From contig OX597833.1 in assembly GCA_951406725.2 (NCBI GenBank), forward strand, positions 4,526,001 through 4,590,000: DNA of 64,000 nt. Reading direction: 5' to 3'. Position numbers and translations under genes: made by a program. The stretch's first letter is position 1. Each line of letters begins with the position of its first letter. The stretch is from Octopus vulgaris (Eukaryota). This document shows positions 4,930-11,200 of this stretch, piece after piece. The notes below the pieces were generated by a model, which saw nothing but the letters and a program-made list of their open reading frames with translations, was not told the DNA's origin and did not search any database.

Positions 4930-6322
4930 ACTAGTGCAAGCTGATTAAGTTAGCAAGTACCTTTATCTTGAGGCTTGGCAACTAGTCTCCTGAAATCTCA
5001 AGAAGCTTTCTTAAGATACTTGAACAATATAGGATGGCATTCTTTTGCTGCCGGTCGACAATGCAAGAATCAATTCCAATTCTTTTCAAGTCTTTTTGGA
5101 AGCATTTTGGGTGTTGTACCAAATGCACCAATTAATACAGGAATAATTATTGCCTTGGTCTTCCGCAGTTTCCTAACCCCTGCAACCACCATTACCTACA
5201 CTGCAAAGACCCCCACACTACTTCAACGCTCACCAATTCTTACAAAGAGAGGACAAAACTGTTGTCGCCTTACCGTGACGGATATTTCTCCAAGCTGAAG
5301 AGCTTTAAAGTTGTTGGGGTTTTGTGGGTCTTTGGTCAAAACATACCCAGTCTTTGACGCTTCCACACTGTATTTCTTGTCTCCGTGAAGAGGTCCCAAG
5401 CTGCAGGAGAGAAGCAGAAGAGGATTACTGATGCAATGCCTCAATGTCATGCATGAATAAACACATTTATGAGTGGATGTAAATGAATTAAGGGTTTTAC
5501 ATATTATATAGGAGAACTCCGTCAGTTACGACGATGAGGGTCCCAGCTGATAAGATCAACAGACCAGCTTGCTCGTGAAATTAATATGCAAGTGGCTGAG
5601 CGCTCCACAGACATGTGTACCTTTAACATAGTTCTCAGGGAGAATCAGTGTCACAGAGTGTGACAAGGCTGGCCCTTTCAAATACAGGTACAACTCATTT
5701 TTGCCAGCTGAGTGAACAGGAGCAACGTGAAATAAAGTGTCTTGCTCAAGGACACACGGTGTCCCTGGGAATTGAACTCATGACCTTACAATCATGAGCC
5801 GAACACCCTAACCACTCAGCCAACGTGCCTTCACACATATTATATATAGATCATTATATAATAACTATTAATGATTACTGAGAATTAGGTTAGACAACTC
5901 GTTATTACTAATTATGTAATTTATTACTAATAGAGCGAAACAGCTAAATAACTTTTAAATTAGGTTTTAATATATCAATCATATTATTTGTCTGTTTCTT
6001 CTAACACATAAAAAGGGGCTACTGAAAAATTCCTGGCATCAAGGGTATCAAGAAGGGTGGGATTAGAAGCCCAATTTTCCGAATTCTTTTACAGGGCTCA
6101 GAAAAACTAAAGGACCGTTGCAATAAATGAACCTGAGAGGGGGATATGTTGAATAAAATCATAATTAACTGGTCCTCCTGTATTTTCTTTTACCCAAAGG
6201 CAGGGACTTTTCAGCAACCCTCGTGTATATGTATATATATATATATATAATAATATTAAGGAGTAAATCCAAACTTACAGGGAAAAATTAGATTTAGGAT
6301 TAAATCTAATTTTATAGTATAA

Positions 6323-6366
<44 letters not shown>

Positions 6367-6700
6367 CGGAGATGTACTTGCATAGCAAGTGATTTGATCT
6401 GAGATCGTGTGCTGAAACGAAAGCAATTGCAGCGTGGAAGGTGTCTGTAAGCCATTTAAGAAACACACAAAAGCCGTTCGATTCACTTCAACATTTAAGT
6501 TTAATTTGTCAAAATATTTTCGTCGCTAAAATCCGCGACCTGTTCACTGACAAAAATCCGTGCTGCACGCATTTTTGTCAGTGAACAGGTCGCGGTCTTG
6601 AAGTGACGAAATGATTTTGACAAATTAAACTTAAATGTTGAAGTGAATCGAACGGCTTTTGTGTGTTTCTTAAATGGCTTACAAACACCTTCCACGCTGC

Positions 6701-6751
<51 letters not shown>

Positions 6752-6885
6752 GAGATAAAAACCACTGTTCGGCAAATCAAACAGTGAAAATCATAAGCCA
6801 ATACATAGAAATAAAATTAATAAAAAAAATATATTGGCTTATGATTTTCACTGTTTGATTTGCCGAACAGTGGTTTTTCTCTCTA

Positions 6886-6923
<38 letters not shown>

Positions 6924-8281: not shown

Positions 8282-11200
8282 ACTTTCTGAGTATTTGTAC
8301 TTTTTAAATGCCTGTATATAATGGGGGTGTGTCTTTGTATGTGTGTGTGTGTGTGTGTAGGTTCACTGTGTGTATGTGTACGTGTGTCTGTGCATTTGTA
8401 CAAAGGCACACGTGTGTGTGTGTGTGTGAGTGTGCATAGTGAATATGTGTGTATGCCTTCGCTTCTGCTCATGGAATCATGTCTTGTTTATCTACGGACG
8501 AGATCATATGTTATGCGTGTGTGTGTGCGCACGCACCTGTCTGCGCACGTTTGTGTGCACGCGTGCCAGCCATGTGTGACATTTGTCCTAGTTTAGTGAC
8601 GCAGGCAGGAGAACAAATGTAGGTCACACAACCACAGCCACAACAATACCTGGCAACACCTCCAACAACCTTCCCTAAACCATGCTGCCACTACAGTTCA
8701 GAGATTCCATTCTAAAAATAGCTCTCTTCACGCTTCAGTAGGCAACACAAGTGAAGAAAAGTACATATCTACCATTGTACCATCGTCACACTTGAATAAT
8801 CACCAGAAAAACAGGGACAAACATCAGAAGCCAAAATAACAAGATCCTGTTTTGGACCCAACTAGGAAGTCTGAAGGGGTTTTTGGACCTACAAGAAATA
8901 ACAGCTGAATCTCCTTTAAGTTGAATTCTGCATTTATATAAAAGAAGGACATCAGATAACGAATCCCTAGATCAGGAGTTCTCAACCATTTCTTATCTAT
9001 GGACCCCTTTGATTACTCTTTTATTTTGGTGGGCTCCCAGAGCCATGCAATGTTTAAAAACTTCTTTCTAAATCCCTATTTTGTTTTCCACCCATGAACT
9101 TGTGTCGGTTGAACCGTGTAAAATGTTAGAGAAAGGAACCCGGCTCTTTCTTGCAATATATAACCAATACATACATCTAAAGCTTACATCAAGGACCCTT
9201 AAAATACTATAGTGGCTCCCCAATTTACTATTTTGTTACATGGACCCCTAAAATTCTTATATGGACTCTCAAGGGCCATGTGGTCTCAGGTTGAGAACCA
9301 CAGCCCAAGGAATATTATCAATGGAAAGATAACAAGATCACGACTGACAGATCTTGAGTTTGTTAGATTAATTCTCAACTCAAACTAAATAACATCTCTC
9401 TCTCTCTCCCACCCTCTCCCCCTCTCTCTTTCTCCCACTCCTCTCCCTTCCTCCCTCTCTTCCCTCCTTCCCTCCCACCATCTCCCCTCTCTTTCTCCCT
9501 CACTCCCTCTCGCTCGCTCTCTCTCTCCCTCCCTCTCCCACTCTTCTCTCCTTCCCTCCCTCTCTCCCTCCCATCTCCCTCACTCTCTCTTCTTCCCTCC
9601 CCCATCTCTCTCCCTCTCTTCCTTCCTCCCCCTCTCTCCCTCTCTCTACCTCCCACCATCTCCCCCTCTCCCTCCCCCCTCTCCCTCTATTCTCTCCTTC
9701 CCTCCCTCTCTCCCTCCCACCATCTCCCCCTCTCTCTTTCTCCCTCACTCTCCCCCTCTCCCTCTATTCTCTCCTTCCCTCCCTCCCACCATCTCCCCCC
9801 TCCCTCTCGTGATGTAGAGAAGTGGACTAAAATGATGTGAATTAAAAGCCATTTTACCGATAGACTCCATCCTGGTCTGTTAGCAATGTGGTCGGCGCCA
9901 TAGTAACAGGATCGTCACAAGACACTACGACAGTGACCCCTTGCAGAGCTGGTTCTATCTTGCCAGTGATGAAGATACCGACCTTGCCGACAAAGTGGGC
10001 CACTTCTCCAGGACAGCTTTCTGCGAAAGAGAGAGAGAGAGACAAGGAAGAAGACATTTGAGCAGAGACAGGTGGAAGATGGAGACGTGCATGGATGGGT
10101 GGGGGTGGGGGGGACACAGGTGCATAAACAACATCAATTTCTGGATCGAAGATTTAACGAATTAGCCATTAGCAATGGCAGCAGAATTTGTAATTGTAAA
10201 ACATCAACAGTCGCAGGTGTGATTTTGTGGTAAGAAATTTGTCTCCAAACCACATGGTTCTGGGTTCAGTCCCACTGCGTGACACCTGGAGTAAGTGTCT
10301 TCTACTATAGTCTCAGGCCAACCAAAGCTTTCTGAGCGGATTTAGTACATGGAAACTGAAAGAAGCCCATAGTATATATATGTGTGTGTGTGGCACGTAA
10401 AAGCACCCACTATACTCTCGGAGTGGTTGGTGTTAGGAAGGGCATCCAGATGTAGAAACTGCCAGATCAGATTGGAGTCTGGTGCAGCCTTCTGGTTTGC
10501 CAGTCCTCAGTCAAATCGTCCAACCCATGCTAGCATGGAAAGCGGACGTTAAACAATGATGATGATGATGTGTGTGTGATGTCAATGGCACCCATGCCAG
10601 TGGCATGTTAAAAGCACCCCCCTACACTCTCGGAGTGGTTGGCATTAGGAAGGGCATCCAGCTGTAGAAACTCAGCCAGATCAAGATTGGAGCCTGGTGC
10701 AGTCTACTGGCTTGCTAGTCCTCAGTCAAACCATCCAACCCATGCCAGCATAGAAAACGGACATTAAACAATGATGTATGTATACCTATTTGTGCCGTTC
10801 TGTCTGTGTTTGTCCTCAGCACCACTGCTTGACAACCGGTGTTGGTGTGTTTGCATCCCCATAACTTAGCGGTTCAGCAAAAAAGACCGATAGAATAAGT
10901 ACTAGGCTCAAAAAAGAAGTACTGAGGTCGATTCATTCGACTAAAAATTCTAGGAGGTGCCCCAGCATGGCTGCAGTCTAATGACTGAAACAAGTAAATG
11001 ATAAAAGATAAACGGAATGGCTAAATGAAAAGGCCATAAAGTTTGGATCAATGCAAGGAGAATCAAACTGAAACGGAAAAAGGTTATCAGGGATCAAAAA
11101 TAATAAAGTGTGAAGATGAAAAGGGTCAATGACGAAAGAAAAAGGTGTCAGACTCACCTCCCTGGATAGTGACTTCCATGTGATTAGGGGAGAATAACAA

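What the first reader, a model, noticed from the sequence alone, without database searches (positions are those of the whole stretch)
6425..6704. Palindrome with two hammerheads showing a compensatory G3:C8 core swap
Seen on + (6574-6624): TTTGTCA|GTGAACA|G|GTCGC-GGTCTTGAA-GTGAC|GAAA|TGATTT|TGACAAA. Seen on - (6554-6504): TTTGTCA|GTGAACA|G|GTCGC-GGATTTTA-GCGAC|GAAA|ATATTT|TGACAAA. Stem I (7 bp) and stem II (5 bp) pair in both copies while the stem II loops differ. The core reads G3-U4-G5-A6-A7-C8-A9 instead of C3-U4-G5-A6-N7-G8-A9. Established: positions 3 and 8 form a Watson-Crick pair in the active hammerhead, and the C3G/G8C double change retains activity whereas single changes do not. Inference: a natural G3:C8 variant that CUGANGA-based searches would miss. 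The predicted triplet is UUU (weak) with palindromic stem III AAUAUU, so dimeric cleavage is likely needed. The minus-strand copy is transcribed within NOMO intron 21, where the 140-bp hairpin would probably sequester it.
Basis: partly seen in the sequence, partly recalled or inferred. Interest (0 to 1): 0.85.

Follow-up and report, generated by a model that had tools for sequence, protein, structure and literature searches.

The report
Hammerhead with swapped core pair
This palindrome is one of thousands of copies of a small jumping element in this animal genome that carries a hammerhead-shaped RNA motif whose key core base pair is flipped (G-C instead of C-G), and related elements in the same genome use all four possible pairs there, so it is likely a natural self-cutting RNA variant that standard searches miss.

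Summary
Confirmed and extended. The palindrome is an insertion (6363-6704) of a ~205-nt non-coding Penelope-like element: a full arm with a ~60-nt tail plus an inverted tail-less arm, in (TA)n within a NOMO intron. At least 4,600 motif copies exist (control 0). Sampled copies show 5' truncation, 9-14-bp target duplications and 43 of 56 inverted pairs with the tail/no-tail layout. The motif matches Penelope-type minimal hammerheads in every feature except G3:C8 (0 of 40,000 shuffles as good). Protein-coding Neptune-type elements in this genome also carry G3:C8 about 200 nt behind the endonuclease. Other families carry A3:U8, U3:A8 or C3:G8: 20 of 20 hand-picked representatives are Watson-Crick. 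Natural U3:A8 is published. I found no natural G3:C8 or A3:U8 in the searched library, but Lünse 2017 was unavailable. Cleavage is untested. Within-family stem covariation is absent, most copies keep the uncut motif, and this copy would be locked in a 140-bp hairpin. The scan noted a G3:C8-like core behind a Penelope RT in another genome (e1-7353390, unsettled).

The parts
6363..6564 (-). Full arm of a ~205-nt non-coding Penelope-like element (unit positions 1-202): hammerhead motif, pLTR body and tail
   Evidence: family 5' end GAGATGCAGCACGG is fixed, with no shared upstream sequence among the 100 of 218 matches listed (read by eye)
6363..6423 (-). ~60-nt tail present on one arm only; ends at CCGTAA
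   Evidence: (43 of 56 inverted pairs: one arm with tail, the other ending near unit position 141)
6565..6704 (+). Inverted tail-less arm (unit positions 2-140) with a different loop-II subfamily type than the other arm
   Evidence: 5 of 36 two-motif pairs mix loop types a and b, this copy among them
6505..6554 (-). Minimal type I hammerhead motif: stem I 6554-6548/6511-6505, core GUGAACA 6547-6541, extra G 6540, stem II 6539-6535/6526-6522, GAAA 6521-6518, palindromic AAUAUU, U17 at 6512; predicted cut 6512/6511
6574..6624 (+). Second hammerhead motif: core GUGAACA 6581-6587, stem II with one G.U, stem III no longer palindromic (AUGAUU); predicted cut 6617/6618
6325..6362 (.). (TA)n target tract, left flank
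   Evidence: 55 of 94 sampled units have (TA)4 in a flank
6705..6745 (.). (TA)n target tract, right flank
9857..10003 (-). NOMO coding stretch upstream of the host intron (approximate bounds)
   Evidence: Pfam PF22902 profile 2-41, E 7.8e-10
5241..5402 (-). NOMO coding stretch downstream of the host intron (approximate bounds)
   Evidence: Pfam PF22902 profile 42-75, E 5.2e-11

Best explanation
The palindrome is one insertion of a high-copy, ~205-nt non-coding Penelope-like element, likely copied in trans by an autonomous Penelope-like (Neptune-type) reverse transcriptase-endonuclease, and it carries a minimal type I hammerhead motif whose 3:8 core pair is G:C instead of C:G and which is predicted to cleave only weakly. 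Shown: the copy number, the inverted arm plus tail layout, 5' truncation, variable target duplications, (TA)n targeting, the motif anatomy, and Watson-Crick covariation at 3:8 across families of this genome. Inferred mechanism of insertion: a staggered double-strand cut at an AT-rich site leaves two 3' ends. Each primes reverse transcription on an element RNA, one at the tail end (position ~202) and one at position ~141, and the two cDNAs join head to head. This gives the palindrome, here from two different source RNAs. Inferred role of the motif: in single-arm source transcripts G3:C8 keeps the core pair that positions the 2'-OH of residue 8. Cleavage after U17 would need a second copy (AAUAUU duplex, very weak) or help from the element protein, so it would be slow and is probably not required for copying. 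In this particular copy, transcribed inside the NOMO intron, the motif would be locked in a 140-bp hairpin and is probably inert.
For: Family size: 4,600 exact matches to a strict motif pattern vs 0 control; 95 of the 100 listed are G:C, none C:G (by eye). Layout: 99 units in 92 loci gave 56 inverted pairs, 40 singles, 3 other; 43 of 56 pairs are tail + ~141; target duplications of 9-14 bp in 19 of 39 non-TA units. A 5'-truncated copy (positions 87-200) sits inside a TIR element whose other copies lack it. An intact 781-aa RT + GIY-YIG element has the same inverted/tail layout. These are the Penelope hallmarks described in PMC8557442 (passages) and PMC11167929 (parts 1-2 of 4). The motif has the features listed for Penelope minimal hammerheads in PMC4209133 (parts 1-2 of 4): extra nucleotide between 9 and 10.1, G10.1-C11.1, palindromic 15.2-16.2. 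A UUU triplet occurs in that paper's Crassostrea example (supplement passage). G3:C8 motifs with different stems lie about 190-220 nt after the GIY-YIG end in L254, L260 and L262 (L262: RT 40% identical over 364 aa, E 4.7e-83). In the search with 3 and 8 left free (18,193 matches vs 2,256 control) the 100 listed rows were, by eye, 70 U:A, 14 A:U, 3 C:G, 1 G:C and 12 unpaired; 8 of those 12 are one repeat lacking stem I (L213). Of 20 hand-picked family representatives, 20 are Watson-Crick (8 U:A, 6 C:G, 4 G:C, 2 A:U; 0 of 200,000 shuffles). In 80 tail-selected loci, shared non-CpG variants fall on 6 of 8 loop II sites and on 1 of 42 core/stem sites, a U.G wobble (p 1e-5).
Against: No cleavage data. 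No double-sided covariation inside the family: of 100 listed copies with a changed 10.2, 2 restore the pair (by eye). Core and stems are only marginally more conserved than the rest of the element (0 of 42 vs 12 of 139 disruptive shared variants, p 0.037; 1 of 42 vs 12 of 139 counting the wobble, p 0.15). In 80 tail-selected copies, 61 reach position 21 or further 5' and none starts unambiguously at the predicted cut, position 54, so the copied RNA is mostly uncut. The AAUAUU dimer helix is only -0.2 kcal/mol against -4.6 to -8.3 for the palindromes of the coding families. The double mutant is only a partial rescue in the papers read. No autonomous element sharing sequence with the unit outside the motif was found among 30 + 20 GIY-YIG loci or 17 G3:C8 Neptune stretches; 6,136 GIY-YIG candidates exist and only 150 were scored. 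The 20 representatives were chosen by me, are related by descent, and six rest on a single locus.
Confidence: 0.8

Rival explanations
1. The motif descends from a hammerhead but no longer cleaves; it is kept as a folded RNA element (protein-binding, promoter or template signal) of the short element, or simply hitchhikes.
For: Copies keep the uncut motif; dimer helix is very weak; in the anole element ribozyme mutants did not affect insertion in vitro (PMC11167929); conservation over the rest of the element is marginal.
Against: A dead motif would not be expected to keep a Watson-Crick 3:8 pair, GAAA, U16.1 and H17 in 20 of 20 representatives while stems turn over. Subfamily changes concentrate in loop II.
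Confidence: 0.15
2. It is a palindromic DNA transposon (MITE or foldback) whose internal TTTGTCA/TGACAAA repeats mimic a hammerhead by chance.
For: Nearly perfect inverted arms between TA tracts; no within-family covariation.
Against: 40 of 99 units are single arms; the centre is variably truncated; one arm has a tail; target duplications vary from 9 to 14 bp; arms can come from different subfamilies; shuffle test 0 of 40,000; the same core sits behind RT/GIY-YIG ORFs.
Confidence: 0.03
3. It is a circular-RNA retrozyme-type element in which the hammerhead cuts and ligates monomers for rolling-circle copying.
For: Small, non-coding, hammerhead-bearing, high copy.
Against: Head-to-tail arrays are rare (at most 3 of 99 units). 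No tail-to-head junction was seen among the 96 tail ends or the 100 listed 5' ends, both read by eye. Unit ends do not coincide with the cut site.
Confidence: 0.05

Closest known systems
Minimal type I hammerheads in pLTRs of metazoan Penelope-like elements (Cervera & de la Peña 2014, PMC4209133; parts 1-2 of 4 and supplement part 1 read)
   Same: Type I, extra nucleotide after A9, G10.1-C11.1, palindromic short stem III, opposite-strand pairs 100-700 bp apart, mostly truncated copies, predicted dimer dependence.
   Different: Core is G3:C8; that paper reports C3:G8 and one U3:A8 variant. Here the carrier is a 205-nt non-coding element with a fixed 5' end.
Natural U3:A8 core variants (Perreault et al. 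2011, PMC3088659, section 8 read; PMC4209133)
   Same: Natural covariation at the 3:8 pair.
   Different: Purine and pyrimidine are swapped (G:C, and A:U in neighbouring families); all four pairs occur in one genome.
Poseidon element of the green anole, PAc (Frangieh et al. 2024, PMC11167929; parts 1-2 of 4 read)
   Same: Two RT start sites giving a tail, AT-rich targets, both strands cut and extended, hammerhead in the pLTR, uncut RNA used as template; engineered C3G/G8C partly active with protein.
   Different: PAc is autonomous with a C3:G8 core; G3:C8 there is a laboratory mutant.
Non-autonomous Penelope-like elements such as MRC1 of Chlamydomonas (Craig et al. 2021, PMC8557442; passages read)
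   Same: Short non-coding derivative with pLTR structure and microsatellite targeting.
   Different: Those share 3' sequence with an autonomous family, often form head-to-tail arrays and mostly lack hammerheads; no sequence-matched parent was found here.

Membership tests
Type I hammerhead (Penelope minimal form) | Core N3-U-G-A-N-N8-A and G-A-A-A with U16.1 and H17 in type I order | tested here: met
Type I hammerhead (Penelope minimal form) | Canonical C3:G8 identity | tested here: not met
   G3:C8 in 95 of 100 listed copies, C3:G8 in none (by eye)
Type I hammerhead (Penelope minimal form) | Watson-Crick pair between 3 and 8, covarying across families | tested here: met
   20 of 20 representatives, four pair types; listing
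Type I hammerhead (Penelope minimal form) | Stems I and II adjacent to the core, G10.1-C11.1, extra nucleotide after A9, palindromic stem III | tested here: met
   palindrome intact in the minus copy and the family majority, not in the plus copy
Type I hammerhead (Penelope minimal form) | Compensatory changes in stems within the family | tested here: inconclusive
   none beyond chance at 10.2/11.2; one shared U.G wobble in stem I; the family is young (85-98% identical)
Type I hammerhead (Penelope minimal form) | Site-specific self-cleavage | not testable with these tools
   no raw RNA reads were available
Penelope-like element, non-autonomous | Inverted 5'-truncated partner and optional tail on one end | tested here: met
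   the tail is ~60 nt against 30-40 nt in the papers read
Penelope-like element, non-autonomous | AT-rich or (TA)n targets, variable-length target duplication, 5' truncation | tested here: met
Penelope-like element, non-autonomous | Sequence-matched autonomous RT + GIY-YIG partner | tested here: inconclusive
   none among the loci examined; only 150 of 6,136 candidates were scored
Neptune clade (for the coding G3:C8 elements L253, L254, L260, L262) | RT followed by CxxC linker and C-terminal GIY-YIG, hammerhead in the 3' pLTR | tested here: met
   copies are broken; the clade name rests on the linker motif described in PMC8557442, not on a tree with reference sequences
MITE / foldback DNA transposon | Two symmetric termini and fixed-length target duplication (recalled definition) | tested here: not met
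Animal retrozyme | Head-to-tail monomers and circular RNA (recalled; only the search listing of PMC7229834 seen) | tested here: not met
   tandems rare; circular RNA itself not testable

The most novel reading that the evidence does not exclude
G3:C8 and A3:U8 are unreported, working natural hammerhead cores. In this genome's Penelope-like elements the 3:8 pair has passed through all four Watson-Crick states, so this lineage holds tens of thousands of hammerheads invisible to CUGANGA searches, and families scored as lacking a hammerhead may carry one.
Probability: 0.45. Interest if true: 0.78.

Novelty: new variant of a known kind. Interest (0 to 1): 0.63.

Why it matters
The 3:8 pair of the hammerhead core was deduced from a crystal structure and from rescue mutants (recalled), and the papers I could read report natural covariation only to U3:A8. 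Here evolution supplies the full set, C:G, U:A, A:U and G:C, in one genome, with G:C fixed in a family of at least 4,600 motif copies. Pattern searches for CUGANGA and Rfam models miss these, so censuses of hammerheads, and statements that some Penelope-like clades lack them, may be undercounts. The natural series, plus A13C and U4C families, is a ready test set for the open question of what these weak ribozymes do for Penelope-like elements. The mixed-subfamily palindromes also give genomic support for two-template, two-ended insertion.

Tried and rejected
Rfam scan: only hairpin-type microRNA look-alikes, no hammerhead. A second GTGAACAG family (GTGAACAGCCATG...) was read in context; it lacks adjacent stems I and II and looks like coding repeat sequence, so it was rejected, and the excess (17,702 vs 5,482) overstates the family. 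A search for other G3:C8 families without the palindrome constraint gave no excess (962 vs 1,015 control). Search for a longer parent: no shared 3' continuation among 96 tail ends and no shared 5' extension among 100 listed 5' ends. A 25-nt 5' extension with a microsatellite in 8 loci leads to no shared sequence beyond it. The match of unit positions 87-200 to a TIR element turned out to be an insertion into it. One search used the wrong strand and returned Neptune 3' UTRs instead. Enrichment of 5' ends at the predicted cut: not seen; starts at 50-54 (8 hits in the 92-locus set lie in 46-61; 3 of 80 main copies at 50-52) are confounded by T-run microhomology, and starts at 38 are alignment breaks at the loop indel. 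Sequencing runs: no RNA holder listed, contigs only. Metagenome scan: 3 hits, none similar to the unit or to the Neptune ORF, taken as chance. The GIY-YIG tree (17 rows, 136 columns) leaves G:C, A:U and one U:A family unresolved, so the order of swaps is not shown. An opposite-strand tRNA-like A/B box reading was considered by eye and dropped because truncation runs from the hammerhead end. Literature: searches found no natural G3:C8 or A3:U8. Lünse et al. 2017, Hammann et al. 2012 and Przybilski & Hammann 2007 were not held, and one supplement file of PMC4209133 could not be searched; any of these may already report such cores.

Full report
Observation. The minus copy (6554-6505) is the family-type sequence; the plus copy (6574-6624) has a different loop II, a G.U in stem II and a non-palindromic stem III. 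Stems I and II fold as proposed. In 40,000 dinucleotide shuffles of the unit, allowing any Watson-Crick 3:8 pair on either strand, none reached 5-bp stems I and II; the real motif has 7 and 5. Rfam returns no hammerhead. The flanking coding stretches at 9857-10003 and 5241-5402 (minus) match consecutive halves of Pfam NOMO1-like_9th, so the feature is intronic in NOMO. The host is a 2.8-Gb animal genome; it looks like an octopus-type cephalopod from recalled repeat motifs, which I did not test.

What it is. A search with one arm returned 465 candidates, 40 scored, at 93-98% identity over the full arm. A strict motif pattern with positions 3, 7 and 8 free gives 4,600 matches against 0 for the control. 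The unit is about 205 nt, with a fixed 5' end (GAGATGCAGCACGG) and a fixed 3' end (CCGTAA). In 92 loci, chosen by similarity or by the motif and so not a random sample, there were 99 insertion units: 56 inverted pairs, 40 single arms and 3 others. In 43 of the 56 pairs one arm carries the ~60-nt tail and the other stops near position 141. Of 94 units with flanks, 55 border (TA)n, and 19 of the 39 others have a 9-14-bp target duplication. A copy cut at position 87 sits inside a TIR element whose other copies lack it. In this window the element split another repeat at its TA tract. Inverted 5'-truncated partners, an optional tail and (TA)n targeting are the marks of Penelope-like elements (PMC8557442, passages). 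The tail arises from two RT start sites (PMC11167929, parts 1-2 of 4). An intact 781-aa RT + GIY-YIG element in this genome shows the same layout. No such element shares sequence with the short unit outside the motif among the loci examined, so the partner is inferred, not found.

The core. The motif has the features that PMC4209133 lists for Penelope minimal hammerheads, except that 3 and 8 are G and C. Three lines support this as a real variant. First, broken coding elements of Neptune type carry GUGAACA, GUGAUCA or GUGACCA cores with other stems (AAGUCA/UGACUU, palindrome ACCGGU, triplet GUA) about 190-220 nt after the endonuclease (L254, L260, L262). Second, a genome search anchored on the ACCGGU palindrome with 3 and 8 free gave 18,193 matches against 2,256. 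The 100 listed were, by eye, 70 U:A, 14 A:U, 3 C:G, 1 G:C and 12 unpaired, 8 of the 12 from one repeat without stem I. Third, 20 of 20 hand-picked family representatives are Watson-Crick at 3:8, in all four forms (0 of 200,000 shuffles); they are related and six rest on one locus, so this is not 20 independent events. One inverted pair (L201) has A3:U8 on one arm and U3:A8 on the other. C:G to U:A and A:U to G:C each need only two transitions through a wobble (inference); the tree does not resolve the order.

Within the family the evidence is weaker. Shared non-CpG variants fall on 6 of 8 loop II sites and on 1 of 42 core and stem sites, the one being a U.G wobble in stem I. Pooled contigs from four public runs show the same variable sites plus CpG decay at C11.1. 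Against the rest of the element the contrast is marginal (p 0.037 or 0.15). There is no double-sided covariation at 10.2/11.2: 2 of 100 listed.

How it likely works. Inferred: source copies are transcribed and an autonomous protein makes a staggered cut in AT-rich DNA. It primes two cDNAs, at the tail end and at position ~141, which join head to head. In 5 of 36 pairs with two motifs, including this one, the arms belong to different loop subfamilies, which fits two separate templates. The motif would cleave after U17 only as a dimer or with protein help. Its AAUAUU helix is worth -0.2 kcal/mol against -4.6 to -8.3 for the coding families, and the engineered C3G/G8C change is a partial rescue. 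The copied RNA is mostly uncut: 61 of 80 tail-selected copies reach position 21 or further 5', and none starts clearly at the cut. This matches the anole element, where uncut RNA is the main template. In the NOMO pre-mRNA this copy folds into a 140-bp hairpin (-229 kcal/mol) and is probably inert. I put cleavage activity of the free arm under some condition at about 55% (judgement).

Novelty. Hammerheads in Penelope-like elements, their opposite-strand pairs and natural U3:A8 are known. Searches found no natural G3:C8 or A3:U8. The most relevant paper (Lünse 2017) and two others were not held, so prior report is not excluded. Verdict: a new variant of a known kind, well supported as sequence and structure, untested as an enzyme. 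Interest 0.63.

Noticed in passing
L187, L204, L205 (G000 C4:867700-872300 and C1): Neptune-type family with an A3:U8 core (AUGAAUA), 2-bp stem II, palindrome ACCGGU and GUC triplet; 14 of 100 listed rows are A:U.
   Followed up: partly
L185, L218: Neptune-type family with U3:A8 and GCAA in place of GAAA (A13C), many copies.
   Followed up: partly
L188, L190, L193: Neptune-type subfamily with CCGAAGA (U4C) core and a U.U pair at 10.1/11.1; sister copies have CUGAAGA.
   Followed up: partly
L201 (G000 C1:7828097-7828239): Inverted pair with A3:U8 on one arm and U3:A8 on the other, otherwise the same motif.
   Followed up: no
L075 minus strand, about 2277-2336: Canonical CUGAUGA motif with the same GUCA/UGAC stem I, an extra nucleotide and a GUCG/UGAC stem II as this family; possible C3:G8 relative, one locus only.
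   Followed up: partly
window 6246-6325 and 6745-6892: Two halves of another short repeat, contiguous in L075, L196 and L054, split here by the TA tract into which the element inserted; the right half is itself palindromic.
   Followed up: partly
L007, L010, L013, L014, L018, L019, L131, L139: Subset of copies with a shared 25-nt 5' extension, in most preceded by a degenerate CATA microsatellite; origin unexplained.
   Followed up: partly
L061, L062 and other places: Recently active Neptune-type family with many intact 781-aa ORFs and a U3:A8 hammerhead; candidate helper for the short element.
   Followed up: partly
window 6425-6704: The 140-bp intronic hairpin, repeated at many loci, would be a substrate for A-to-I editing (recalled biology; not tested).
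   Followed up: no
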